Assembly (NCBI GenBank): GCA_026387175.1
Contig: JAPLME010000007.1
Coordinates: forward strand, 487 to 64,486
Origin: Candidatus Omnitrophota bacterium
Lineage (GTDB): Bacteria; Omnitrophota; Gorgyraeia; 2-01-FULL-45-10
Reading direction: 5' to 3'
DNA: 64,000 nt
The notes beneath the pieces are model-generated. The model searched no databases, was not told the DNA's origin, and saw nothing but the letters and a program-made list of their open reading frames with translations. Positions within the stretch are counted from its first letter, which is position 1. Each line of letters opens with the position of its first letter. Below, piece after piece: positions 1-28,315 of this stretch. A program made the position numbers and the translations under genes.

Positions 1-3000
1 CATCGGCGCGGACGCGGCTGGGGGCGGTATAACCACGGGCGGCACAGGCACGATAACCTTAAGCGGAGTCAATCTTTATACTGGTGCAACCACGATTAAC
101 GCGCTCAGCCATTTGACTTTGGATGGAACGGGCACGATCGCAGCAAGTTCAGGCGTGGCGAACGCAGGCACTCTCACAATTCAAGGGGACAAGGTGGTTC
201 AGAAGATGACAGGCGCTGGCGTAACCGCGCTGGGTGCGAATACCCTGACCATTGGCGATGTCCATAACCTCTCCGGCAACTACACCGGTATAGCAAGCGG
301 CACAGGCGGTATAACTACGGCTGGCACAGGAGTACTAACCCTAAGCGGAGCCAATGATTATACTGGTGCAACCACGATTAACGCGCTCAGCCGTTTGACT
401 TTGGATGGAACGGGCACGATTGAAGGCAGTTCAGGCGTGGCGAACGCAGGCACCCTTACGATTCAAGGGAACAAGACGATTGACTCGATGACCGGCGCCG
501 GCGTAACCACGCTGGGCGCGAATACCCTGACCATTGGCGATGCCACCGGCACTTCCGGCACCTACAGCGGTGTGGCAAGCGGCACAGGCGGTATAACCAA
601 GGCAGGCGCAGGCACGCTAACCCTCTCTGGCGCCAACGACTACACCGGCGTAACCACCTACACAGCCGGCACCGTGAGCGCGAACACTATCGGTAATGGC
701 GGCGCGGCAGGCAGCATCGGCAAAGCCGCGGCAGCGGCCGGGAACCAGGTCCTTAACGGTGGCACTCTATCATATACCGGAAACAATACCACTACGGACC
801 GTGGTTTTACCGTCAATGCCGCTGGCAGCGAGATTGATGTAACGACAGTCGGCCAGACACTCACTATTCAAACAACCGGGATCGTTACAAACGCAGCAGC
901 TGACATTTTGACCATAGGTGGAGCCGGTAATACTGAGATAAAAAGCGCAATCTCCGGTACAGGCGGATTGGCTAAAGATGATGCAGGCACTCTTACTCTA
1001 AGCGGCGTGAACACCTTCACCACCGGTGGGATAGCTCTTAACGCGGGCACGCTGAAGCTCGGTAGCACCACGGCGCTGGGCGGGGCGACTAGCAAGCTCA
1101 CCATTAACGGCGGTACGATTGATAACAGCAACGGCGCCGCTCTCGTAATGGCGAACAACAACCCGGTTGATGTGAAAAGCGACTGGACCTTCACCGGTAC
1201 CAATGATCTCACTTTTGCCGCAGGCGCGTGGACGTTGTATGGTACTGGTACAGTCACGCTTACCACTGCAGGTAAAAACCTGACCGTTGGTGGAATCGTC
1301 GGAGACCTTGGTAATGCCTTTGGCTTGGGTACGGCTGGCGCGGGCACGCTAACCTTGGACAAGGCCAATACTTATACGGGCGCGACCACGATCGGCGCGG
1401 GCAGTACGTTGGCTTTGGACGCAACGGGCACTATTGAAACAAGTTCAGGCGTGGCGAATTCAGGCACCTTTACGACTGCGGCGGCCAAGACGATTCAGTC
1501 GTTGACCGGCGCGGGCGTAACCACGCTGGGAGGCGGCGACTTGACCGTCGGCGATGCCAATAACCGCTCCGGTACCTACAGCGGCGCCATTGGAGACGGT
1601 GGTGGTGCCAGAGGCGTGATCAAGGCCGGCACCGGCACCTGGACGATTTCCGGCGTGAACACTTACACCGGAGCCACAGCAATCAACGCTGGAACATTAG
1701 CGTTAGGAGGCGCTACCACCATTAAAGGCAACATTACGCAGGCTGCCGCCGGCACGCTCGATCTTGGCACCAGCACGTTGACGCTTAATGGAATAGGTGC
1801 GTTGGGTAATTATACGCAGGCCGCCGCTACAACCCTGAATACAACTATCCTGAACGCCACTACGGCGGGTAATATCAATGCCTCAGCCGCAGGCACCGGT
1901 AAAATGACGACACTGGCAGCGTCTGCGCTTAATATTAACGTCGGCTCTGCATACATTCCTAATAATACGACCTGGACGATCCTTGACGGTAAGACAGGAG
2001 CGACAGGCGTTGTCGCGCCTACGACTATTACAACTAATAGTTCTGTCCTCACGTTCACGGCAGCGGCGGCGAACGGCGGCGACGATCTGACTATCACCGC
2101 GAGCCGTGGAACTAACGGTTATCCCGCGCGCGCCTCGAACTCAAATGCAGCAGCGGCAGGAGCGGCGCTTGAAGCGGCGGGCAATGCCGGCGCCACCGGA
2201 GATATGGCGACTGTGCTGGGCACGCTCGACGGCTTATCCGCTTCGCAGGTAAGCGCAGCGCTCAATACGGTTGTCCCGGAGGTCGATGCCGGGGTCATCA
2301 ATACGAGCACGACCGTTCTAAATAACTTCGTCGGGGTCGCTATGGACAGGGTGGAACAAACTCTGAAGGTTGCCAAGGCCGCGGACTCCGCGACCACGGG
2401 TCTCTCAGCGGGAGAGGCGAGTAAAATAAGCGGCGCTTGGGGAAAAGGGTACGGCAGTTATTTGACGCAAGGTACGCGCAATGGTATCGCCGGATATGAA
2501 GCGTGGAATGCCGGCACCGCGCTTGGCGCCGATCACCTCTTCGCGGATCTCGTTACCGTTGGCGTAAGCGGCGGTTACGCGTATGGGAACGTCGACTCGG
2601 ATGTTAATAACGCGAGTACGTATATCAATAGCGCCCAGACCACCGTGTACGGGGGGTATGAAGATAAAAATCTTCCTTTCTTCATCGACGCGGCAGGTTC
2701 CTTCGCATGGAACTGGTATGAAGGCCGGCGCGATATAAATATCGGCGGCGCTATATTAAGGACTGCGAATGCCGCATATGACGGCCAGCAATACGGCGCA
2801 TATTTAGGCGGTGGCTACAGGTTCAATATGACAAAGAATATTGAATTTACGCCTCTCCTGTCGCTTCAGTATAATCACCTTCAGCTGGGGAGTTATACCG
2901 AAACAGAAGCCGGAGCGCTCAATTTAAGCGTCGCGAGCCAGGGCTATGATCAATTACAGTCCGGCCTCGGCGCGCGCATAGCCGCTCCTATAAAGTGTAA

Positions 3001-3265
3001 ATGGGGCACTTTCACTCCGGAAGCTCATGGAAAATGGTTCTATGACTTTATCGGTGATAACATGGCAGTGACATCGAACTTCAACGGCGGCGGTGGGAAC
3101 TTCGGCTCAAACGGCGCTAAACCTGCGCTGAATAGCTTCAATGCCGGAGGTCAGTTGACGTTTAATTTCAAAAACGATATTTCTCTTATAGCGAACTGCG
3201 ATACGGAGATGAAGGACGAGTTCTTTGGTATCTACGGTTCGGCGACGGTCAGGTACAATTTCTAA
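1..3265 (+). CDS. Autotransporter (type Va) outer-membrane protein, 5' end outside the window. The passenger is built from autotransporter-associated beta-strand repeats and is followed by a C-terminal beta-barrel translocator.
   Basis: The frame is open back to position 2 and the upstream sequence continues the repeat. The passenger repeats read 'GTLTLSGANDYTGATTINA..'. The C-terminal ~300 aa carry a classical autotransporter linker and beta-domain (AWGKGYGSY.., alternating aromatic strands) and end in ..RYNF. Confidence 0.8.
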   Translation, partial: IGADAAGGGITTGGTGTITLSGVNLYTGATTINALSHLTLDGTGTIAASSGVANAGTLTIQGDKVVQKMTGAGVTALGANTLTIGDVHNLSGNYTGIASGTGGITTAGTGVLTLSGANDYTGATTINALSRLTLDGTGTIEGSSGVANAGTLTIQGNKTIDSMTGAGVTTLGANTLTIGDATGTSGTYSGVASGTGGITKAGAGTLTLSGANDYTGVTTYTAGTVSANTIGNGGAAGSIGKAAAAAGNQVLNGGTLSYTGNNTTTDRGFTVNAAGSEIDVTTVGQTLTIQTTGIVTNAAADILTIGGAGNTEIKSAISGTGGLAKDDAGTLTLSGVNTFTTGGIALNAGTLKLGSTTALGGATSKLTINGGTIDNSNGAALVMANNNPVDVKSDWTFTGTNDLTFAAGAWTLYGTGTVTLTTAGKNLTVGGIVGDLGNAFGLGTAGAGTLTLDKANTYTGATTIGAGSTLALDATGTIETSSGVANSGTFTTAAAKTIQSLTGAGVTTLGGGDLTVGDANNRSGTYSGAIGDGGGARGVIKAGTGTWTISGVNTYTGATAINAGTLALGGATTIKGNITQAAAGTLDLGTSTLTLNGIGALGNYTQAAATTLNTTILNATTAGNINASAAGTGKMTTLAASALNINVGSAYIPNNTTWTILDGKTGATGVVAPTTITTNSSVLTFTAAAANGGDDLTITASRGTNGYPARASNSNAAAAGAALEAAGNAGATGDMATVLGTLDGLSASQVSAALNTVVPEVDAGVINTSTTVLNNFVGVAMDRVEQTLKVAKAADSATTGLSAGEASKISGAWGKGYGSYLTQGTRNGIAGYEAWNAGTALGADHLFADLVTVGVSGGYAYGNVDSDVNNASTYINSAQTTVYGGYEDKNLPFFIDAAGSFAWNWYEGRRDINIGGAILRTANAAYDGQQYGAYLGGGYRFNMTKNIEFTPLLSLQYNHLQLGSYTETEAGALNLSVASQGYDQLQSGLGARIAAPIKCKWGTFTPEAHGKWFYDFIGDNMAVTSNFNGGGGNFGSNGAKPALNSFNAGGQLTFNFKNDISLIANCDTEMKDEFFGIYGSATVRYNF

Positions 3266-17821: not shown

Positions 17822-18142
17822 ATGCGTTTTTTGAACAGGCTGTTATTTTTTATAGGCTGGCTCTTATCGCCGTTTACTACCTGGAACGACATATTTATAA
17901 ATATCCCTTTGGCGTATCTTGCGGCCAGCCTATTTTTTAAAATATTTCCTAACAATTTCGCTCTGCAGGTAATAATTTTTTACTGGCTCAGTAACGGTCT
18001 CGGATTATTATTGATGTACACGACGGGCCGTAACGTATTAAAAGAAAAACGCCTGAGTTTCAGATCGATCCTCAGCACACTCCTAATCTACAGCATTATT
18101 TTATTTCTGCTCGATAAATTTGTTAATCTCCGTCCTGTGTAA
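17822..18142 (+). CDS. Hypothetical small integral membrane protein
   Basis: Three hydrophobic helices. No known motif. Confidence 0.4.
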   Translation: MRFLNRLLFFIGWLLSPFTTWNDIFINIPLAYLAASLFFKIFPNNFALQVIIFYWLSNGLGLLLMYTTGRNVLKEKRLSFRSILSTLLIYSIILFLLDKFVNLRPV

Positions 18143-18192
18143 GGCGAAAAAGCTAACTTTCGTTAGGCCTTAAAAAAGTTTGTATTTAGCTA

Positions 18193-18220
18193 TTGACACT
18201 TTTAAAATCTGTGATATACT
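18193..18220 (+). promoter_or_regulatory. Sigma-70-like promoter: TTGACA, 16-nt spacer, TATACT
   Basis: Read directly. Lies about 215 nt upstream of the first giant GLUG-repeat gene. Confidence 0.55.
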
Positions 18221-18391
18221 CGAACTGTAGCTTCGATAAAGGCAAAGCCGTCGAAAGACGGTGGCGTTCCCTGAAGTGGAGAAGGGGACTGCGGCCTAAG
18301 AGAAAATAGGCCGTAGCAAAGCCAAGGATCTAGAAAATTAACTAGATAGCCTGGTTACCGAAAAGCGGTTTCGGAAACCAGGCTTTTTTAT
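18221..18391 (+). promoter_or_regulatory. Structured leader RNA of about 170 nt, ending in an intrinsic terminator 43 nt before the start codon. Candidate riboswitch or attenuator.
   Basis: Several local hairpins, including ccguc-GAAA-gacgg and cggccu..aggccg. The leader then runs into a 14-bp terminator stem plus U6. Confidence 0.45.
18350..18391 (+). terminator. Rho-independent terminator inside the leader (the attenuator 'OFF' element)
   Basis: Stem cctggttaccgaaa/tttcggaaaccagg (13 of 14 bp paired, loop agcgg), followed by cTTTTTTatt. Confidence 0.7.
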
Positions 18392-18433
18392 TACGGTGGT
18401 AGTGAGGCTTCAATAACCAAAAGGGGGTACTCC

Positions 18434-21391
18434 ATGAACGCCCTGGCGATAACCAAAAAGACCTTATCAGTCCTTCTCATCTGCACTTTTATCACGAGCC
18501 AGGCGGCCTATCCCGTAACAGAAAACACCCAAACTAAAACTACCTACGAACAGAGTGTGCCCGGATCTTCCGTAGAAAAGACAATAAGCGCCGCCGCCGC
18601 TCTTACCTCTATGATAGAGGCCAAGAATGCCCTGATCTCCGCGCCTGTCGTTAGCAACCCCGCGGCACAGCAGATCATCATACACAGTGTATTCGAATTA
18701 CAGAACATCTCACAAAACCTCACCGCACATTATGCTCTCGCCAATGACATCGACGCCTCTATTACTAAAACATGGAACGGCGGATTAGGGTTTAATCCTA
18801 TTGATGGCTTTGCCGGTATATTCGATGGCCAGGGATACACGATCTCCAGCCTATATATAAATAGAGATACGCTAAATTTACTTGGGAGAAGGGATAACAT
18901 AGGACTTTTTGGTAAAACTGCTATTAATGCATGGGAAACCAGAATTATAAACACACATCTCGAGTCTGTTTTCATAACTGCTAATAGCTCTGCCGGAGGG
19001 TTGGTGGGCTTTTTCGCTAGTGGTGTAATCGAAAACTGCTCGGTAACGGGAACGATAAATATGGTGAATAGTAGTAGCGTTGGCGGCGGCCTTGTGGGCT
19101 GGAATGAGGGAGAGATATATAACTCCTCGGCGGAGGTAGCCGTGACCAGCTATAGCGAAGGCGGCGGCCTTGTCGGACAAAATAACGGATTAATTTACGG
19201 CTCTTACGCCGCAGGCATACTCGACGGCGCTTTATATACCGGCGGTCTCGCAGGCCGGAACGATGGGCGGATATATTACTCCACGGCTACGGGATCTGTG
19301 AATTGCTATCAATATGGCGGTGGCCTTGTAGGCTGGAACGAGGGGGAGATATACAGCTCCACGGCAGCGGGAGCCGTGAATGGCTATTATGGCATGGGCG
19401 GCCTCGTAGGCCGGAACAAGGGAGATATATATTACTCCATGGCTACGGGAGATGTAAACAAGAACTATTACGGTTCTTTCGATGCCGGCGGTCTTGTAGG
19501 CTGGAACGATGGAGAGATATACAGCTCCACGGCTGCTGGAACCGTTCGTGGTCGTTACAGCCCCGGTGGCTTCGTAGGGTCTAACAACGGGCAGATATAC
19601 TATTCCGCGGCAACGGGAACTGTGGAAGGATATGAGGGTGCTGGCGGTTTCGCGGGATTAAACGGTAATATCGGTACGATCTCAGGCTGTTACGCCACAG
19701 GTATCGTCACCAGTACTTCTGGTACCGATTACAGTACCAAGCGCACTGGTGGCTTTGTTGGTATGAACTATCGTTCCGGCATAACCGGTATAACCAATTC
19801 ATATGCGTCTAAGTTATATAACGTCCTCGACCTACAGCTTATTAAGTACAGGCCGACCGGTACATTTACAGTAATGCAGGACATCGATGCCATCGATACA
19901 AAAAACTGGAACGGGGGGCAGGGGTTCGAGTCGATCGCGAACTTCAATGGGATTTTCGACGGTAAGAACAAGGTCATCTCCAACCTCTATATAAACAGGC
20001 CCACCGAGAATAGTATAGGGCTTTTCGGATGGAATATGGGCACCATCATAAATACAGCCCTCAGCTGGGCAAATGTAAATGGTAGTTGCTACATTGGGGC
20101 GCTTGTAGGCATGAATTATGGCCAGATATCTAACTCTTGGGCAAACGGCGTGATAAAAGGAGCCTATTACCTTGGCGGCCTCGTTGGCATGAATTATGGC
20201 CAAATATGTAACTCCTGGACAAGCGGAACAATAAACGGCTATTACGGCGTAGGCGGCCTCGTCGGATACAATTACGGACTAATCCGGAGTTCTAATGCAT
20301 CGACCACTGTAAATGGCACTTACTATGTAGGCGGCCTCGCCGGCATGAACTATGCCCAGATATATAGCTCCACAGCAATAGGGATAATAAGCGGCTATTA
20401 CGGTATCGGCGGCCTCGCCGGATATAACTATGGTTTGATCTGGGGTTCTACCGCGTCGCCCACTGTAAATGGCACTTACTATGTCGGCGGCCTCGCCGGC
20501 ATGAGCTACGGCCAAATATATAACTCCACGGCGGTAGCGACGGTGAACGGCTATTACGGCGTCGGCGGCCTCGCAGGATATAATTATGGCTTAATCTGGG
20601 GTTCTTACGCCGCATGTGCTGTAAAAGGTACTTACTATGTCGGCGGCCTCGCCGGCATGAACTACAGCCAGATATATAATTCAACGACATGGGGAGTAAT
20701 AAACGGTTATTCCGGCATCGGTGGACTTGTCGGATATAACTACGGATTGATATATGGTTCCAGCGCATACGCCAATGTCACAGGCACCTGCTATGTCGGC
20801 GGCCTCGCCGGCATGAATTATGGCCAGATATATAACTCCTGGGCCAGTGGAATAGTAAATGGCTGGAACTACATCGGCGGGCTTGTCGGGGTAAATAGCG
20901 GCACTATCTCGGGATCCTCGGCACGGGGAGCCGTAACAGGCTATTACGGTACAGGCGGGCTTTGTGGATTGAATTACAGTGTTATCTCATCCTGTTATGC
21001 CACAGGCGCTGTCGCAGGCACTTACTATGCCGGCGGCCTTACCGGCATGAACTATGGCCAGATATCTTACTCTACCGCATATGGAGCCGTGAACGGCTTT
21101 TACGGTATCGGCGGCCTGGTCGGATATAACGCCGGCGTGATCTTAAACTCTTACGCCGTAGGCGCAGTTTCAGGAACTTACGATGTCGGCGGTCTTGTCG
21201 GTTTGAATATGTATACCGGCAAGATATATAATTCCGCGGCAACAGGAGGAGTAAATGGCTATGCCTATGTCGGCGGCCTCGTAGGCGCCAACTATGGCTT
21301 AATATCGAAGTGCTGGGCTATTGGACGTGTATTTGGTTCATACTATGTTGGTCAGTTAGTCGGTTATAACGCAGGGACCATAATATATTGA
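18434..21391 (+). CDS. Giant secreted GLUG-motif beta-solenoid repeat protein, first gene of the pair (985 aa)
   Basis: Signal peptide (..FITSQA/AYP). A ~110-aa N-terminal module (ANDIDASITKTWNGGLGFNPIDGFAGIFDG.GYTIS.LYINR) that recurs internally. More than 25 tandem ~26-aa repeats YVGGL(V/A)G.NYG.I.NS.A.G.V.G, which I read as the GLUG motif (PF07581-like). A conserved C-terminal tail. Confidence 0.75.
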   Translation: MNALAITKKTLSVLLICTFITSQAAYPVTENTQTKTTYEQSVPGSSVEKTISAAAALTSMIEAKNALISAPVVSNPAAQQIIIHSVFELQNISQNLTAHYALANDIDASITKTWNGGLGFNPIDGFAGIFDGQGYTISSLYINRDTLNLLGRRDNIGLFGKTAINAWETRIINTHLESVFITANSSAGGLVGFFASGVIENCSVTGTINMVNSSSVGGGLVGWNEGEIYNSSAEVAVTSYSEGGGLVGQNNGLIYGSYAAGILDGALYTGGLAGRNDGRIYYSTATGSVNCYQYGGGLVGWNEGEIYSSTAAGAVNGYYGMGGLVGRNKGDIYYSMATGDVNKNYYGSFDAGGLVGWNDGEIYSSTAAGTVRGRYSPGGFVGSNNGQIYYSAATGTVEGYEGAGGFAGLNGNIGTISGCYATGIVTSTSGTDYSTKRTGGFVGMNYRSGITGITNSYASKLYNVLDLQLIKYRPTGTFTVMQDIDAIDTKNWNGGQGFESIANFNGIFDGKNKVISNLYINRPTENSIGLFGWNMGTIINTALSWANVNGSCYIGALVGMNYGQISNSWANGVIKGAYYLGGLVGMNYGQICNSWTSGTINGYYGVGGLVGYNYGLIRSSNASTTVNGTYYVGGLAGMNYAQIYSSTAIGIISGYYGIGGLAGYNYGLIWGSTASPTVNGTYYVGGLAGMSYGQIYNSTAVATVNGYYGVGGLAGYNYGLIWGSYAACAVKGTYYVGGLAGMNYSQIYNSTTWGVINGYSGIGGLVGYNYGLIYGSSAYANVTGTCYVGGLAGMNYGQIYNSWASGIVNGWNYIGGLVGVNSGTISGSSARGAVTGYYGTGGLCGLNYSVISSCYATGAVAGTYYAGGLTGMNYGQISYSTAYGAVNGFYGIGGLVGYNAGVILNSYAVGAVSGTYDVGGLVGLNMYTGKIYNSAATGGVNGYAYVGGLVGANYGLISKCWAIGRVFGSYYVGQLVGYNAGTIIY

Positions 21392-21442
21392 AGAGCAATA
21401 TGATAGGGTAGGCAATTTTCAATAACGATAGGGAGGTGTCCC

Positions 21443-24400
21443 ATGAACACCCTGGCCGTAATGAAGAAAACAGTATCGGTATTTCTCATATGCACTTTTA
21501 TCACGAGCCAGGCGGCCTACCCTGTATTAGAAAACACCCAAACTAACACATCCTACGAACAGAGTGTGCCCGGAACCTCCGTAGAAAAGACATTAAGCAC
21601 TACAGCTGCTCTTACCTCTATGATAGATGCCAAGAACGCTCTCCTGGGGCCGACGCCTGTGGCCAGTAACCCTGCTGCGCAATAGGTTGCCAGTACTACC
21701 ACCGTTCAACCCACTATCGTTATACACAGCGTATTCGAACTGCAAAATATTTCACAGAACCTCACCGCGCATTATACCCTCGCCAATGACATTGATGCTT
21801 CTATCACTAACACATGGAATGGTGGTCTAGGATTCAACCCTATAGACAATTTTGCCGGTATCTTCGATGGCGGTGGATATACCATCTCCAACCTCTATAT
21901 AAATAGGCCCAACGAAGACTTTATAGGGTTATTCGGTAGTACGGTCATAAGTAAATGGGATACCAGGATAATGAATGTGCGGCTCGAATCGGTTTCTATA
22001 ACCGGATTAAATGCTGTAAGCGGTCTTTGCGGATATAATGCAGGGACAATCTTAGCTTCTTATGTCACTGGGTCTGTTATTGGCTATACCGCTGCGGGGG
22101 GGCTGGTAGGAATAAATGATGGCAAAATAGATAATTGCCAAGTGACTGGAACAGTAAGTGGCCGTCCCGGTGAAACTTCTGGTATCGGCGGTCTTGTAGG
22201 TGAAAACTACGGCACGATCTCAAACTCACAAACGGGTGGGACTGTGGAAGGGACTTTAGGTAATAAAGCCCTTTGTGCTGGTGGCCTTGTCGGATTTAAT
22301 GAAGGTATAATTTCAACTTCTTATTCCACGAGTAATGTTGGCGGAAGTGACTTTCTCGGCGGATTCGTAGGTATAAATGGCGGTAAAATATATAATTCCT
22401 CTGCAATGGGAACAGTAATTGGCCCGCACTCTGAAGGTATAGGTGGATTTGCTGGTGGAAATTGGGGAGAGATCTTTAGTTCACGGGCAAGCGGAGCCGT
22501 GAACGGATATGGAGATGTCGGCGGCCTGTGCGGCGGAGTCGCGATAGGTGGGATGGTTTTCGATTCTTACGCTACAGGTATTGTTACAGGTGTTGAAGTT
22601 GTCGGTGGTCTCGCAGGCATAAGTTATGGAAATGTAACTAATTCCAGGGCAACTGGAACAATAAGCGGTAAGACATGTATTGGCGGTCTCATAGGTAGCA
22701 ATATTGGCTTGATATCGGAATCTTGGGCGAGTGGCGTTGTAAGTGGCGACTGGACGATTATCGGCGGCCTGTGCGGGTACAATGGTGATGGCGGTACAAT
22801 TAAAGCCTCTTATGCTAAAGGAAGCGTCACTTGTAATGACACTTATAACTATTATACCAGTAGCGATGATGTTGGCGGATTGGTGGGTGATAATTTTGGC
22901 ACAATTTCAGATTCTTGGGCAGCTGGTACGGTAAAAGGTGCTGAAGGTGTTGGCGGTCTATGCGGGTATACCGGTGGTATAATATCCGCCTCATATTCTT
23001 TAGGCAACGTTATCGGTAAATCTAAAGTCGGTGGGTTTTCCGGTGCTACCTCTGGGGACATATCTAACTCTTGGGCGACAGGAGCAGTGACTGGTGGCAA
23101 CAGTACCGGCGGGTTCTCGGGTTTAAATTTCGGTTCAGTATCCGATTCCTGGGCAAGCGGAGTTGTGAAGGGGTCTTCATATGTAGGTGGTTTTGTGGGT
23201 AGTAATGGTTATGAAGGCACGATCTCAAACTCCTGGGCAAGCGGAGCTGTGGATGGAGTTTCATATGTTGGCGGTTTATGTGGATACAATGTTTACGGCA
23301 TGATAGCGTCCTCTTACGCCTTAGGCAACATCACTGGAACCGACCACGTAGGCGGACTTGTAGGCATGAATATTAGCAAGATATATAACTCCTGGACAAG
23401 CGGAGCTGTGAATGGATCTTTATATGTTGGCGGCATAGCTGGATATAATATGAATTACGACATAGGTGGCATAATTTTATCGACTGGCATAATCTCAGGC
23501 TCTTGTGCCACAGGCGTTGTCACCGGCACCAACTTTGTCGGCGGCCTTGTCGGCAAAAACGATAAATCCGGCATAACCGGTATTACCAATTCCTATGCAT
23601 TGAACTTGTATAACGTCCTCGACCTCCAGCTTATGAAGTACAAGCTGGACGGCACATTTACGGTGATGGGTGACATCGACGCCTCCGACACCAAAAACTG
23701 GAATGGGGGAAAGGGGTTCGAGTCGATCGCAAACTTTGCGGGTATTTTCGACGGCAAGAACAAGGTCATCTCCAACCTCTATATAAATAGGCCTACTGAG
23801 ACCAATATAGGATTCTTCGGCAGTACAGCTATAGGTCCGTGGGAAGTCAAGATCATGAATACGCGGCTTGAGTCGGTTTCTGTGACTGGTAATGGTTCCG
23901 TTGGTGGTCTTGTTGGCTGTTTGTCAGCAAATGGCACAATAGAGCGCTCTTTGGTAACGGGAACTATAAACGGTCTCGGCTACTATATAGGCGGCCTTGT
24001 TGGTGGCAACTTTGAAGGAACCATTCGACAGTCATTTGCATCCGCGACAGTAACTGCCCCCGGCCTTGTTGGCGGTTTAGTTGGTATGAATACCGGAGAT
24101 ATTTATGATTCATATTCGACCTCCGATGTCAGCGGCAATTATTGGGCTGGCGGACTTGTCGGATTTAACAATGCCCAGTGGCAATATGCATATGGCCCAC
24201 ACGGTACGCGCATCCCTTATTTGGCATATGCCGGTAATGTTTACCGCAGCTATTCTACGGGCAGAGTTACTGGTTCTGACATTTATAATGGCGGGCTTAT
24301 AGGGTGCTCATGGGGTGGTACTATCTCCGACTCATACTGGAATATGAATACTTCCGGCATGAGTACAAGCGGTGGTGGCATGGGGAAGACCACAGCTCAG

Positions 24401-26866
24401 ATGATGGACGCCTCGACGTTTACGGGATGGGATATTTCATATAATTCCGGGCACACGTGGATCATGGCTGGGTATCCGCATCTGCAGTGGGAGTGGACCG
24501 ACAAGATAACCAACGCCTCCCAGCTCCAGATGGTGACGCTCAATACTAGCGCTAACTATACCATCGCTAATAACATCGATGCCTTCGCCACTAAAGGATG
24601 GAATGGCGGGTTGGGTTTTAACCCTATCGATGATTTTGCGGGCATTTTTGATGGCAAGAACAAGGTCATCTCCAACCTCTATATAAATAGGCCTAGTGAG
24701 TACTATGTAGGCCTTTTTGGCAGCATAGGTACAGGTTCGCAGGAAGCCAGGATTACGAATACAAGGCTCGAGTCGGTTTCTATAACCGGCGATAGTGATG
24801 TGGGCGGCCTCGTCGGTAGTCTATCAAATAAAGGCGTGATTGAGAATTGCTCCGTAACCGGAACGGTAAAAGGCTATAATTACACTATAGGTGGACTGGT
24901 CGGTTATAATGGTATTTACGGAACTATCCTGCAGTCATTCACGTCCGCGATAGTAAGCGCTGTTTATGGTTATGGCTACATAGTGGGCGGTCTTGTGGGC
25001 ATGAATGTCGGTAATATTTATAATTCATACTCGACATCCGCTGTAAACAATGGTTATAAATATACCGGCGGACTTGTAGGTTCCAATGCCGGTAATATTT
25101 ATAATTCCTGGGCAACAGGGACGGTAAGCAGCAATATCAGTAGTAATGTCACCGGCAATATCAGCAGTAGCGATGGTGCTGGTGGACTTGTGGGCGCGAA
25201 CTCCGGAGGAATATACGGTTCCTGGGCAAGCGGAGCAGTAATAGGAGGCGCATATGGATCTTCGCATCTCGGCGGCCTGATCTCGGCCTCGTATGCGATA
25301 GGTAGTATTATAGGGCGTAACGCTTTCCGTATCGGCGGCCTTGTAGGAGAGAACCAGGGCAAAATATATAATTCCTGGGCAAGCGGAGCTGTGAACAGTG
25401 TATATAGCTATGCCGGAGGTCTCGTCGGATACAATGCAGCTAATGGTTTGATATCGGCTTCTTATGCCATAGGTAATGTCACGGCCAGCTCATCTATCGG
25501 CGGCCTCGCAGGTTTTAACGACAACGGCACTATCTCGGACTCATGGGCAAGCGGAACTATCGCTGGAGCTAGCAATATAGGCGGCCTAGTAGGAGATAAT
25601 ACAGGAACGATTTCTAACTCTTATGCTAAAGGGAGCCTTAAGAATGGCTGTGTTGCCGGCGGACTTGTCGGTGAAAACAAGGGCTCCGGCAAAATATATA
25701 ACTCTTGGGCCACCGGAGCTGTGGATGGGAGCTCATGTGCCGGCGGCCTTGTGGGGCTTAACAACATCGGAGCCATGATTTCGAACTCATGGGCAAGCGG
25801 CGCCATAAAGGGATATGCGTATTATTCTTCAGGCCTCGGCGGCCTGGTCGGGACCAACGCCGGTATAATTTCGGCCTCGTATGCTACAGGTAGTGTTATC
25901 GGTGCGCTCAATGCAGTTCGTCTCGGCGGCCTTGTAGGAAATAACTGCGGCAAAATATATAGCTCATGGGCGAGAGGAGCCATAACCGGCGCATATACCT
26001 ATGCCGGTGGATTAGTCGGATATAACGAAGTTAATAGTTTGATTTCATACTGTTATGCGCTAGGCGCTGTTACCGGCACCTACTTTGCCGGCGGACTTGT
26101 AGGCCAGAACCGCGGCACGATCTTGAGTTCCCGGGCAAACGGCGTTGTAAATGGACAATCACTTGCCGGCGGCCTCGTTGGAGATAATTATGGCGTAATT
26201 TCCGCCTCTTATGCCACAGGCAGTGTCACCAGTACTGGTGCCGACATCGGCGGACTTGTAGGCCAGAACCGCGGCACGATCTTGAGTTCCTGGGCAAGCG
26301 GAGCCGTGAAGGGGAGATCTGAAGTCGGCGGCCTCGTCGGATGGAATGACGGACTGATCTCGGCCTCGTATGCTTTGGGCAATGTTATTGGCTCTGCTAT
26401 TCTTGGCGGCCTTGTAGGCGACAATTATTATTCCGGCACGATCTCGAATTCATGGGCCGGGGGAGCCGTAACCGGGGATACAAATGTTCTATCTTTTCAA
26501 TCCTTTGCCGGCGGATTGGTGGGAAATAATCATGGCTTGATCTCAACCTCCTGCGCCACCGGTAATGTTACCACAGCCTCTTCCTGGATCGGCGGGCTTG
26601 TGGGTATAAATTACGGCAAAATATATAATTCCTGGGCGTCGGGAATAGTAAAAGGATATGATTTCGTTGGCGGGCTCACAGGTTTTAATAATAACACGAT
26701 CTCTAATTCCTGGGCGAGGGGAACTGTAAGCGGGCATTACTACGTCGGCGGCCTGGTGGGCGCCAACTACGGCCTGATATACAAGTGCCGGGCATTTGGC
26801 CGCGTATTCGGTTCACGTTATGTAGGTTGGCTAGTCGGTTATAACGCTGGGACCATAATATACTAG
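21443..26866 (+). pseudogene. Second giant GLUG-repeat protein, interrupted by one in-frame TAG at 21683-21685. As a single frame it would encode about 1807 aa.
   Basis: ORFs 21443..21685 and 21971..26866 share a frame, and I translated 21686..21970 with no further stop. The N-terminal 80 codons are highly similar to the 18434 paralog, including its signal peptide. The ORF-track alternative is a 1631-aa product from the internal ATG at 21971, which would lack a signal peptide. Confidence 0.6.
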
Positions 26867-26914
26867 AGGCAGTAACCGCATTTGCCGGGCCTCCACTCCC
26901 GGCAGATGTATTAT

Positions 26915-26960
26915 CCCCATGTCGATTGACGCTGTCGGCATGGGGATTTTTTTGTTTTTG
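26915..26960 (+). terminator. Rho-independent terminator after the giant gene pair
   Basis: Stem ccccatg/catgggg followed by TTTTTTTGTTTTTGTTTT. A second short hairpin gccggg/cccggc lies just upstream (26884-26903). Confidence 0.7.
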
Positions 26961-27451: not shown

Positions 27452-28315
27452 ATGGCTAAAGGGTTAAGAACAAGATTGAACCAGGAAGAGTTGCGCAGGC
27501 TATATCTTGTAGAGAAAAAATCTCTCGAGGATATCGCGCGGCTACATGGTGCATCCAGGGTTGCCGTGTGGAAGTATTGTAATGCCGAGGGCTTGACGAG
27601 GCGCACCAGGTCGGCCGCCAGATTGGAAGCCCAGAAAAAAGGAAAAGTTCCCCAGGGCTTCTTCGAAATAAATGATAATTTTTTCAGTAATTGGTCTCCG
27701 GAAATGGCGTATGTTTTGGGATTAATCGCCACCGATGGTTGCGTTTCTAAATCCGGTACCGTGTCGCTCTGTATAAACGATAAAGATCTATTAGAAAAAG
27801 TAAGACTGGTTATGGATTCCGAGCATAAGATATGCCGGTCAAAGTATCAAGAAGGGTTATATTCTTTTCATTTTGCAAGGCCCCGGTTAGTTAAGGACTT
27901 GGCAGCGCTTGGTATTCTGCCCAGGAAGAGCCTGAATATTAAGTTTCCGGCAGTTCCGGATGCTTTTTTGATTGATTTTGTCAGAGGAGTTTTTGATGGT
28001 GACGGCTCCGTGTATTTTGAAAAACGAAGCGAACGCTATCCTTTAAGAACGACATTTGTCAGCAGCTCGCAAGAGTTCATTGAAAAACTGGAGATCGTTC
28101 TGCGGCAAATGGGGTTACCTGAACGTGTAATACACAGGCAAACTACGAAAAACGGATTACATTTTAAGATCAGATATAGTCATAAAGATAGCGCGAAACT
28201 GTTTCATTTGATGTACAATGACACTGCCAATTCCTTGTTTTTGGGGCGTAAATATAATAAATTTTTGGATGGTTTTCAGAAAGAAAATAGCGGAGCTGAA
28301 TATAATGGAAAATGA
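27452..28315 (+). CDS. Free-standing LAGLIDADG-family endonuclease-like protein (two LAGLIDADG motifs) with an N-terminal HTH extension
   Basis: The N-terminal ~65 aa form an HTH (SLEDIARLHGASRVAVWKYC). Motif 1 is YVLGLIATDGCVS and motif 2 is FVRGVFDGDGSVY, both keeping the acidic residue. The ~110-aa spacing is typical of single-chain LAGLIDADG enzymes. Confidence 0.65.
   Translation: MAKGLRTRLNQEELRRLYLVEKKSLEDIARLHGASRVAVWKYCNAEGLTRRTRSAARLEAQKKGKVPQGFFEINDNFFSNWSPEMAYVLGLIATDGCVSKSGTVSLCINDKDLLEKVRLVMDSEHKICRSKYQEGLYSFHFARPRLVKDLAALGILPRKSLNIKFPAVPDAFLIDFVRGVFDGDGSVYFEKRSERYPLRTTFVSSSQEFIEKLEIVLRQMGLPERVIHRQTTKNGLHFKIRYSHKDSAKLFHLMYNDTANSLFLGRKYNKFLDGFQKENSGAEYNGK

What the first reader, a model, noticed from the sequence alone, without database searches (positions are those of the whole stretch)
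18193..18433. Promoter, then a ~170-nt structured leader, then an intrinsic terminator 43 nt before the giant adhesin-like gene: candidate riboswitch or attenuator
A near-consensus promoter at 18193-18220 drives a leader that folds into several hairpins, including ccguc-GAAA-gacgg, cggccu-N10-aggccg and aucuag-N7-cuagau. The leader ends in a strong terminator (14-bp stem plus U6) before the RBS of the 985-aa secreted repeat protein. This is the classic layout of a transcription-attenuating riboswitch. Fragments (GGCAAAG followed by a GAAA-tetraloop hairpin, CGGCCUAAG, GCAAAGCC) loosely recall elements of c-di-GMP-I (GEMM) aptamers, which often control adhesin genes. I could not make the full consensus fit by eye, so the class is open.
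Basis: partly seen in the sequence, partly recalled or inferred. Interest (0 to 1): 0.6.

Follow-up and report, generated by a model that had tools for sequence, protein, structure and literature searches.

The report
c-di-GMP riboswitch before adhesin genes
The leader is a class I cyclic-di-GMP riboswitch, a well-known kind of RNA sensor, that most likely switches on two giant adhesin-like genes when the signal molecule is abundant; its only unusual feature is two extra hairpins inserted into the sensor.

Summary

**Identity.** Rfam's c-di-GMP-I model (RF01051) matches 18231-18362 (+) above its curated cut-off: 39.8 bits against 35. The ligand-contact residues G20, A47 and C92 and the C44-G83 pair are all present. 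G at position 20 argues against the cGAMP subtype.

**Mechanism.** The 5' arm of the intrinsic terminator (18348-18389) is the 3' strand of P3, plus C92, plus the 3' strand of P1. Aptamer and terminator therefore exclude each other, which predicts an ON switch. The regulated unit is the leader plus two GLUG-repeat genes, ending at a terminator at 26913-26954.

**Conservation.** A syntenic Candidatus Omnitrophota locus (L126) carries the same promoter, aptamer and overlapping terminator. These are 88-91% identical, against 70-75% for the flanking genes, and the differences include compensatory changes.

**Unusual feature.** Two hairpins (Pa 18266-18289, Pb 18290-18315) are inserted between C44 and G45. 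The same module recurs in at least 33 aptamers, mostly from Omnitrophota, with strong covariation. Close relatives lack it, so it is optional.

**Verdict.** A new member of a known class. I found no description of the expanded-P2 architecture. Ligand binding and switching are untested.

The parts
18193..18220 (+). Sigma-70-type promoter: TTGACA, 16 nt, TG-n-TATACT. The inferred transcription start is about 18227-18228, 4-5 nt before P1.
   Evidence: 11 of 12 matches, extended -10. It is conserved with the same spacing to the aptamer in the orthologous locus L126. The start site is inferred, not mapped.
18231..18362 (+). c-di-GMP-I (GEMM-I) aptamer, expanded type
   Evidence: Rfam RF01051 scores 39.8 bits against a gathering score of 35. 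My own model R1 scores 125.2 bits over 18228-18367.
18232..18235 (+). P1 5' strand (UUCG). It pairs with 18359-18362 (CGAA).
   Evidence: P1 is the weakest helix in the family alignment, with 70% of cells paired.
18241..18241 (+). G equivalent to Vc2 G20, which contacts the G-alpha base of the ligand
   Evidence: Alignment to RF01051 and RF03167. The role of G20 comes from PMC6140456.
18242..18262 (+). P2. The 2-bp base GC (18242-18243) pairs with GC (18316-17). It is followed by the AAA internal loop and then a 6-bp stem with a GAAA tetraloop (18247-18262).
   Evidence: In the family alignment 6 of 6 stem pairs show compensatory changes and 99.5% of cells are paired.
18265..18265 (+). C equivalent to Vc2 C44, whose interhelical partner is G18349 (equivalent to G83)
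   Evidence: The position follows from the Rfam alignment. The C44-G83 pair is described as universal in GEMM in PMC4744006. This column is a C in all 33 aligned relatives and was not fixed by my search pattern.
18266..18289 (+). Pa: extra hairpin 1 (7 bp, 10-nt loop), inserted directly after C44
   Evidence: In the family alignment 5 of 5 pairs show compensatory changes and 98.8% of cells are paired.
18290..18315 (+). Pb: extra hairpin 2 (9 bp, 8-nt loop), directly followed by G45/C46 (18316-18317)
   Evidence: In the family alignment 8 of 8 pairs show compensatory changes and 94.5% of cells are paired. The orthologue L126 has a C-G to U-A change in this stem.
18318..18318 (+). A equivalent to Vc2 A47, which contacts c-di-GMP (PMC4744006). 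It is the first A of the conserved AAA linker.
   Evidence: for the alignment; PMC4744006 for the role.
18320..18356 (+). P3 hairpin with the bulged AG (18348-18349). The canonical tetraloop-receptor columns are absent.
   Evidence: (the receptor columns are deleted in the alignment). The orthologue L126 has an A-U to G-C change in this stem.
18358..18358 (+). C equivalent to Vc2 C92, which forms a Watson-Crick pair with the G-beta base of the ligand
   Evidence: for the alignment; PMC6140456 for the role.
18348..18389 (+). Intrinsic terminator (the expression platform). The 5' arm, 18348-18363, is the P3 3' strand plus A/C92 plus the P1 3' strand. The 3' arm is 18369-18384. The U6 run is 18384-18389.
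   Evidence: -22.7 kcal/mol. The same overlapping design is seen in L126 and in 9 of the other 10 closest relatives.
18423..18427 (+). Shine-Dalgarno sequence GGGGG, 6 nt before the ATG
   Evidence: Read from the sequence. The stretch between terminator and start codon is not conserved in L126, so there is no evidence that it has a regulatory role.
18434..21391 (+). Regulated gene 1: a 985-aa secreted GLUG-repeat (beta-helix, adhesin-like) protein
   Evidence: The best named homologue is from Candidatus Omnitrophota.
21443..26866 (+). Regulated gene 2: a paralogous GLUG-repeat gene of 1807 codons with one in-frame TAG at 21683-21685. It starts 51 nt after gene 1, with no terminator between them.
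26913..26954 (+). Intrinsic terminator that ends the two-gene unit (14-bp stem, T7)

Best explanation
The leader is a class I cyclic-di-GMP riboswitch (GEMM-I, Rfam RF01051) that works by transcription termination and antitermination as a genetic ON switch.

Transcription starts a few nucleotides before P1. The aptamer (P1, P2, P3, plus two lineage-specific hairpins Pa and Pb inserted in the P2 domain) is complete before the 3' arm of the terminator has been made.

If c-di-GMP binds at the P1/P2/P3 junction (G18241, A18318, C18358), it holds the P3 3' strand and the P1 3' strand in the aptamer. The terminator then cannot form, and RNA polymerase reads into the two GLUG-repeat adhesin-like genes (18434-26866).

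Without ligand, the 3' arm (18369-18384) displaces P1 and lower P3, the 15-bp terminator forms, and transcription stops at the U6 run, about 18389.

Shown here: family membership at the sequence and structure level, conservation and covariation, and mutual exclusivity of the two folds. Inferred: the ligand, the ON direction, the transcription start and co-transcription of both genes. Pa and Pb are most likely peripheral stabilising helices that stack on the 2-bp base of P2 next to the binding pocket. That last point is inference only.
For: (1) Rfam RF01051 scores 39.8 bits against a gathering score of 35 over 18231-18362. It is the only hit above a curated cut-off in the 64-kb window.

(2) The hallmark residues are present with the canonical spacing: G20, C44, A47, G83 and C92, the AAA linker, a GNRA-capped P2 with 2-bp and 6-bp stems, and the 3-nt internal loop. 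Definitions are from PMC1950547, PMC4744006 and PMC6140456.

(3) In the 33 related expanded aptamers, 93.5% of pair cells are paired, against 66.9% in shuffles and 27-46% with slid partners. 28 of 37 pairs show double-sided changes. RNAalifold independently recovers P2, Pa, Pb and P3. The Pa+Pb stretch folds on its own into exactly two hairpins in 33 of 33 sequences, median z = -5.1.

(4) The orthologous syntenic locus L126 (Candidatus Omnitrophota) has the same promoter, aptamer (117.7 bits) and overlapping terminator. Aptamer identity is 88% and terminator identity 91%, against 70-75% in the flanking genes and 64% upstream of the -35. Compensatory changes occur in Pb and P3.

(5) The transcript up to 18367 folds essentially as the aptamer (-52.7 kcal/mol). 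The full leader prefers the terminator fold (-67.5 against -47.8 kcal/mol for the aptamer fold).

(6) The overlapping terminator design recurs in 10 of the 11 closest sequences, the window included, with different loops and co-varying arms.

(7) Genes downstream of relatives are typical c-di-GMP targets: collagen-repeat, PKD, subtilase, pilin-like, transglutaminase-like and DPBB proteins, and response regulators.

(8) There is experimental precedent. Bc2 of B. thuringiensis is a c-di-GMP-I ON switch that antiterminates transcription of an adhesin gene (PMC4933901).
Against: There is no experimental evidence of any kind: no binding assay, no mapped start site, no termination assay.

The Rfam score is only about 5 bits above the cut-off, because the model has to jump over a 64-nt insertion.

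P3 lacks the tetraloop receptor that usually accompanies a GAAA loop (PMC1950547).

P1 is short (4 bp) and is the least supported helix (70% paired).

The covariation alignment A3 was fitted to my own model. The columns for G20, A47, the AGC of the bulge and the two Cs of the C92 region were fixed by the search pattern in most rows, so their invariance there is not independent evidence.

The terminator fold is about 20 kcal/mol more stable than the aptamer fold, so any ligand effect must be kinetic. That is usual for this type of switch but is unproven here.

No GGDEF or EAL gene was seen among the 28 window ORFs I scanned. With only 64 kb this is uninformative.
Confidence: 0.82

Rival explanations
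1. It is a c-di-GMP-I aptamer but with different regulatory logic. It could be an OFF switch, or it could act mainly on translation or mRNA stability rather than by antitermination.
For: Both ON and OFF c-di-GMP-I switches are known; for example, the abstract of bioRxiv 10.1101/617340 describes Vc2 as an off-switch. More distant relatives of this aptamer have separate downstream terminators, or start codons right after P1, so platforms vary within the family.
Against: In the window the terminator's 5' arm is made of P3-3', C92 and P1-3'. A ligand-stabilised aptamer can therefore only disfavour the terminator. The same overlap is conserved in L126 and in 9 of the other 10 closest relatives. The stretch between the terminator and the start codon is not conserved in the orthologue, which argues against a translational element there.
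Confidence: 0.08
2. The aptamer senses a different ligand: 3'3'-cGAMP as in the GEMM-Ib subtype, another cyclic or linear dinucleotide, or something new made possible by the Pa/Pb insertion beside the pocket.
For: Single-nucleotide changes in GEMM-I are known to change specificity (G20A, PMC6140456). Rfam keeps separate variant models, and RF03167 gave a sub-threshold match here. The insertion lies between C44 and G45, next to pocket residues.
Against: Position 20 is G, not the A of GEMM-Ib. Position 47 is A, not the G of the GGC variant. Position 92 is C. RF03167 scores 38.1, far below its cut-off of 59. Very close relatives with identical pocket and P3 sequences lack the insertion altogether (L121, L124), so the insertion is optional rather than pocket-defining.
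Confidence: 0.05
3. It is not a riboswitch. It could be a protein- or ribosome-dependent attenuator, or simply a structured leader in which the terminator of a short independent transcript (an sRNA of about 160 nt) happens to resemble GEMM.
For: The promoter-plus-terminator layout would also produce a stable short RNA of about 160 nt. Weak sub-threshold matches to sRNA families (McaS, SSRC8) cover the terminator hairpin.
Against: Those matches are far below their cut-offs and cover only the terminator stem. The c-di-GMP-I match passes the curated cut-off with all pocket residues. More than 30 homologues covary and sit in 5' UTRs of diverse surface or signalling genes. I saw no leader peptide ORF. 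A terminated product acting additionally as an sRNA or a ligand sponge is not excluded, but it would be an addition, not an alternative.
Confidence: 0.03

Closest known systems
c-di-GMP-I riboswitch (GEMM-I, Rfam RF01051); structural reference Vibrio cholerae Vc2
   Same: Same three-helix junction core, P1/P2/P3. Same G20, A47 and C92 contacts and C44-G83 interhelical pair. Same GGCAAA and GCAAAGCC blocks, AAA linker and GNRA-capped P2 with 2-bp and 6-bp stems. Same 5'-UTR location before a surface-protein gene.
   Different: Two extra hairpins (50 nt, Pa and Pb) are inserted between C44 and G45, which turns the P2 internal loop into a four-way junction. P3 lacks the tetraloop receptor although the loop is GAAA. 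The Rfam model reaches only 39.8 bits because it skips the insertion. The abstract of bioRxiv 10.1101/617340 describes Vc2 as an off-switch; this one is predicted to be ON.
Bc2 RNA of Bacillus thuringiensis (c-di-GMP-I ON switch upstream of the collagen adhesion protein gene cap; PMC4933901)
   Same: Same class and same logic. An intrinsic terminator just before an adhesin gene is the default state, and c-di-GMP binding gives antitermination and read-through.
   Different: Bc2 has the compact canonical aptamer, comes from a Firmicute and is experimentally validated. The window's element has the expanded P2 domain, comes from an uncultured Omnitrophota lineage, controls GLUG-repeat rather than collagen-binding proteins, and is untested.
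GEMM-Ib (3'3'-cGAMP riboswitch, e.g. Geobacter Gs1761)
   Same: Same overall fold and clan.
   Different: GEMM-Ib has A at the position equivalent to G20 (PMC6140456). The window has G (18241).
c-di-GMP-I-GGC variant (Rfam RF03167)
   Same: Same clan (CL00126). It gave the lowest E-value in the permissive scan.
   Different: It scores 38.1, below its gathering score of 59. At the position equivalent to A47 its consensus has G, whereas the window has A (18318).

Membership tests
c-di-GMP-I riboswitch (RF01051) | Covariance-model score at or above Rfam's curated gathering score | tested here: met
   39.8 bits against 35 over 18231-18362, model positions 1-87 of 87. The margin is small because a 64-nt insertion is skipped.
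c-di-GMP-I riboswitch (RF01051) | Ligand-contact nucleotides G20, A47 and C92 (Vc2 numbering) | tested here: met
   G18241, A18318 and C18358 align to these positions. Their roles are taken from PMC6140456 and PMC4744006.
c-di-GMP-I riboswitch (RF01051) | Universally conserved interhelical C44-G83 Watson-Crick pair | tested here: met
   C18265 is the last base before the insertion. G18349 is the bulged G of AGCC, 9 nt before C92 as in Vc2. The C column is a C in all 33 relatives and was not imposed by the search pattern. Tested at the sequence level only; the tertiary pair itself cannot be tested here.
c-di-GMP-I riboswitch (RF01051) | First hairpin made of 2-bp and 6-bp stems, a 3-nt internal loop and a GNRA tetraloop; AAA linker to the second hairpin (Weinberg 2007) | tested here: met
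   GC/GC base, AAA loop, a 6-bp stem with GAAA (18242-18262), and AAA at 18318-18320. The one departure is that the 3' side of the internal loop carries the 50-nt Pa/Pb insertion.
c-di-GMP-I riboswitch (RF01051) | Tetraloop receptor in the second hairpin when the tetraloop is GAAA (usual, present in about half of members; not obligatory) | tested here: not met
   The receptor columns (CUAA...UAU) are deleted in the Rfam alignment, and P3 is a plain helix. The orthologue has GAGA and close relatives have GYGA or GCGA loops, which normally lack a receptor (PMC1950547).
c-di-GMP-I riboswitch (RF01051) | Helices supported by covariation in homologues | tested here: met
   The orthologue has compensatory changes. 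P1 is only weakly supported (70% paired).
c-di-GMP-I riboswitch (RF01051) | Selective binding of c-di-GMP and ligand-dependent gene control | not testable with these tools
   This needs in-line probing or ITC, and transcription termination assays.
GEMM-Ib (cGAMP riboswitch) | Adenine at the position equivalent to G20 | tested here: not met
   The window has G18241. The definition is from PMC6140456.
c-di-GMP-I-GGC variant (RF03167) | Score at or above a gathering score of 59; G at the position equivalent to A47 | tested here: not met
   38.1 bits; the window has A at 18318.
c-di-GMP-II riboswitch (Rfam family as I recall it, RF01786) | Match to the class II model | tested here: not met
   There was no such hit in the gathering scan or in the E<=1 scan of 18100-18500.
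Intrinsic (Rho-independent) terminator | G+C-rich hairpin immediately followed by a U run | tested here: met
   A 15-bp stem at -22.7 kcal/mol with U6 at 18384-18389. It is conserved in L126 with U5. Actual termination was not tested.

The most novel reading that the evidence does not exclude
The Pa/Pb two-hairpin module, inserted with no linker nucleotides between C44 and G45, defines an undescribed structural subclass of c-di-GMP-I riboswitches. In it the P2 internal loop becomes a four-way junction beside the ligand pocket. The subclass is prevalent in Candidatus Omnitrophota and related PVC-group MAGs. On this reading the module changes folding, affinity or switching kinetics, for instance by stacking Pb on the 2-bp P2 base or by replacing the missing tetraloop-receptor contact. 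Rfam's model only just detects these RNAs (36-48 bits against a cut-off of 35), so c-di-GMP regulons in these phyla would be under-annotated.
Probability: 0.4. Interest if true: 0.5.

Novelty: new member of a known kind. Interest (0 to 1): 0.33.

Why it matters
The result puts a concrete regulatory link into an uncultured phylum. In this Omnitrophota lineage a second messenger appears to switch on giant GLUG-repeat adhesin-like proteins directly at the RNA level. That fits the general rule that high c-di-GMP favours attachment.

It also shows that c-di-GMP-I aptamers tolerate, and in this lineage often carry, a conserved two-helix insertion right next to the binding pocket. This matters for riboswitch structural biology and for annotation, because these expanded aptamers sit only 1-13 bits above Rfam's cut-off.

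The class, the ligand and the mechanism themselves are ordinary and well understood.

Tried and rejected
- **Exact look-up of the 985-aa protein:** not on record.
- **MAFFT alignment of divergent members (A1):** it misaligned Pa and Pb. I replaced it with a covariance model seeded from the five closest sequences (A2 to R1) and a model-guided alignment (A3).
- **tblastn of the GLUG protein against all riboswitch loci:** no hit. Those loci are riboswitch homologues, not orthologous loci. The orthologue was found through the protein search instead.
- **Best GLUG homologue P0001 (L127):** no riboswitch upstream. It starts 83 nt after another gene, so it is probably the second gene of an operon, like gene 2 here.
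- **Pb as a relocated 11-nt tetraloop receptor for the GAAA loop (CCUAAG...UAGG):** the loop is kept in L126 (UCUAAG...UAGA) but is absent from L097, L108, L117 and L080. Two sequences at 88% identity cannot show constraint. Unsupported.
- **Sub-threshold Rfam matches (McaS, SSRC8_2, HOTAIR_2):** noise on the terminator hairpin.
- **RF03167 (GGC variant):** rejected on score and on A47.
- **Chance hits in the genome pattern scan:** about three quarters of the 120 hits are chance matches. They include a recurrent 151-nt match that my structural filter did not pass and that looks like coding sequence (for example L002, L009, L021, L037). A structural filter and the model removed them.
- **Literature searches for an expanded-P2 GEMM-I, or for c-di-GMP riboswitches in Omnitrophota or Planctomycetes:** nothing found. 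The library is incomplete, so this is weak evidence of novelty.
- **GGDEF/EAL genes:** none among 28 window ORFs.

Full report
**1. Observation**

The region reads as the first-stage reader described it.
- A sigma-70-type promoter is present: TTGACA, 16 nt, TG-n-TATACT at 18193-18220, 11 of 12 consensus positions.
- The downstream 215 nt fold far better than shuffled controls: -81.7 kcal/mol, z = -6.17, 0 of 200 shuffles as stable.
- The three named hairpins are at 18248-18261, 18292-18313 and 18328-18347. The last has an 8-nt loop, not 7.
- The terminator is a 15-bp stem with one A.A mismatch (18348-18384, -22.7 kcal/mol) and a U6 run at 18384-18389. It ends 44 nt before the ATG at 18434.
- The gene encodes a 985-aa protein with a signal-peptide-like N-terminus and GLUG repeats (Pfam PF07581, E = 4e-64).

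**2. Identity**

A scan of the whole window against Rfam 15 gives one hit above a curated threshold. It is c-di-GMP-I (RF01051) at 18231-18362 (+), 39.8 bits against a gathering score of 35, covering all 87 model positions.

The alignment places the window's bases on the defining positions of the class:
- G18241 corresponds to G20, A18318 to A47 and C18358 to C92. These are the three ligand contacts (PMC4744006, PMC6140456).
- C18265 and G18349 correspond to the C44-G83 interhelical pair, which PMC4744006 calls universally conserved.

The first hairpin matches the original description (Weinberg 2007, PMC1950547). It has a 2-bp base, an AAA internal loop, a 6-bp stem, a GNRA (GAAA) loop and the AAA linker.

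Related models are excluded. The GGC variant (RF03167) scores 38.1, below its cut-off of 59, and its consensus has G where the window has A47. The cGAMP subtype has A at position 20, whereas the window has G. No c-di-GMP-II match appeared.

**3. Why it did not fit by eye**

Rfam aligns 64 nt where its consensus has 14. The extra sequence forms two hairpins, Pa (18266-18289) and Pb (18290-18315). They are inserted with no linker nucleotides between C44 and G45. This converts the P2 internal loop into a four-way junction.

The P3 columns that normally hold the tetraloop receptor are deleted.

**4. Relatives and covariation**

I scanned the GTDB species genomes for c-di-GMP-I cores with a 50-80-nt P2 domain. 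About a quarter are real aptamers with the same layout: P2, 'GAC', Pa, Pb, then GCAAAGCC. The rest are chance matches.

By record title, most of the real hits are Candidatus Omnitrophota MAGs. Several are labelled uncultured Planctomycetia.

I seeded a covariance model (R1) from the window and its four closest relatives. It found 33 expanded aptamers at E < 1e-11 and only one copy in the window.

On the model-guided alignment:

| Measure | Observed | Control |
|---|---|---|
| Pair cells that are standard pairs | 93.5% | 66.9% in column shuffles; 27-46% with partners slid 1-3 columns |
| Pairs with changes on both sides | 28 of 37 | - |
| Pa: compensatory pairs; cells paired | 5 of 5; 98.8% | - |
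| Pb: compensatory pairs; cells paired | 8 of 8; 94.5% | - |

That alignment leans toward its own model, so I ran two independent checks. RNAalifold predicted the same P2, Pa, Pb and P3. Each Pa+Pb stretch folded alone gives exactly two hairpins in 33 of 33 cases, median z = -5.1 against dinucleotide shuffles.

One caveat applies. The columns for G20, A47, the AGC of the bulge and the two Cs of the C92 region were fixed by my search pattern in most rows, so their invariance in that alignment is not independent evidence.

Rfam's own model detects 19 of 20 expanded loci, but only at 36-48 bits.

A metagenome scan for the window's closest clade found three kinds of member:
- without the insertion (L121, L124);
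- with a longer Pa (L122);
- with a 108-nt elaboration of Pb (L123, L125).

All have near-identical P3 sequences and flanks. The module is therefore optional and sits at one fixed site.

**5. The orthologous locus**

The best full-length homologue of the GLUG protein is P0002, at 42% identity and 100% coverage. Its source names it as Candidatus Omnitrophota.

Its contig (L126) is syntenic with the window. The gene order is PAC2, DUF748, Polysacc_synt, a small ORF, a 106-aa ORF, the leader, then GLUG.

Its leader contains the same element at 117.7 bits. It also has the same promoter, at the same distance from P1, and the same overlapping terminator.

| Region | Nucleotide identity, window vs L126 |
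|---|---|
| Aptamer | 88% |
| Terminator | 91% |
| Three flanking genes | 70-75% |
| Upstream of the -35 | 64% |

The substitutions include a C-G to U-A change in Pb, an A-U to G-C change in P3, and G.U to G-C in P2.

It also places the window in an Omnitrophota lineage.

**6. Mechanism**

The terminator's 5' arm (18348-18363) consists of the bulged AG including G83, the P3 3' strand, A/C92 and the P1 3' strand. The aptamer and the terminator therefore cannot coexist.

- The transcript up to 18367 has a minimum-energy fold that is essentially the aptamer (-52.7 kcal/mol).
- Once the 3' arm is present, the terminator fold wins: -67.5 against -47.8 kcal/mol.

This is the standard kinetic ON design. 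Ligand captured during transcription locks P1 and P3 and prevents termination; without ligand, transcription terminates.

The same overlap occurs in 10 of the 11 closest sequences, the window included, with different loops and co-varying arms.

Bc2 of B. thuringiensis is an experimentally proven c-di-GMP-I ON switch of this kind in front of an adhesin gene (PMC4933901).

No terminator lies between gene 1 and the paralogous gene 2 (51-nt gap). A strong terminator follows gene 2 at 26913-26954. The likely regulated unit is therefore 18227-26954.

Genes behind the relatives encode secreted or surface proteins and response regulators. This matches the known GEMM regulon.

**7. What is inferred, not shown**

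The following are all inferred: the transcription start, c-di-GMP binding, the ON direction, co-transcription of both genes, and any role for Pa and Pb. My guess for Pa and Pb is that they stack so as to stabilise the 2-bp P2 base beside the pocket.

**8. Novelty**

The class, the ligand logic and the link to adhesins are all known, and Rfam's model finds the element. It is therefore a new member of a known kind.

The expanded P2 architecture is conserved and well supported by covariation. I did not find it in the original GEMM description or in the searchable literature. Rfam's model does not include it and skips over it. It may deserve description as a structural subtype, but I cannot exclude that it is already noted in supplementary alignments.

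Noticed in passing
window 21443-26866 (+), stop codon at 21683-21685: The second GLUG gene really starts at 21443; its N-terminus is a close paralogue of gene 1. It carries a single in-frame TAG at codon 81, inside a 10-residue insertion relative to gene 1. The listed 1631-aa ORF (21971-26866) is only its downstream part. The TAG could mean a pseudogene, an assembly error or read-through.
   Followed up: partly
window 27452-28315 (+): A free-standing ORF with a LAGLIDADG_3 (homing-endonuclease-like) domain lies just downstream of the GLUG operon. The syntenic locus L126 has a DUF134 gene at that place instead, which suggests a lineage-specific insertion.
   Followed up: no
L095 2706-2837 and 2861-2992; L112 388-530 and 676-827; L056 1851-2011 and 6223-6372: Some Omnitrophota loci carry two expanded-type aptamers. 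In L095 the two are separated by 23 nt, before a single gene, and look like a tandem arrangement. L112 has two within about 450 nt. L056 has two in front of different genes.
   Followed up: no
L042 4711-4849, L027 1382-1533: Two MAGs labelled Planctomycetia and Planctomycetales have c-di-GMP-I-like cores in which the extra hairpins appear to lie on the 5' side of the GNRA hairpin instead of after C44. They score low with model R1 (39 and 28 bits). This may be a second, different way of expanding P2.
   Followed up: no
L123 4572-4794, L125 2123-2345: Metagenome relatives of the window's clade have a 108-nt elaboration inside Pb, giving an aptamer of 223 nt in total. Position 19 is G (AAGGGC) instead of A.
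   Followed up: no
window 113-3265 (+): A 1050-aa autotransporter (PATR passenger repeats plus a beta-domain). It is another surface adhesin-type gene in the same window and indicates a diderm envelope. No riboswitch precedes it within the window.
   Followed up: no
L002, L009, L021, L037, L043, L086, L087, L089, L091, L100, L101, L106 (151-nt matches): My search pattern also hit a conserved 151-nt stretch in many unrelated MAGs. The flanking sequence looks like coding sequence read on the opposite strand. My structural filter did not pass these matches, and the ones the model screened gave no hit. These are false positives of the pattern, not RNA elements.
   Followed up: partly
L039 6391-6523: A TPP riboswitch (RF00059, 56.4 bits against a cut-off of 54.3) lies on the same contig as one expanded c-di-GMP-I aptamer.
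   Followed up: no
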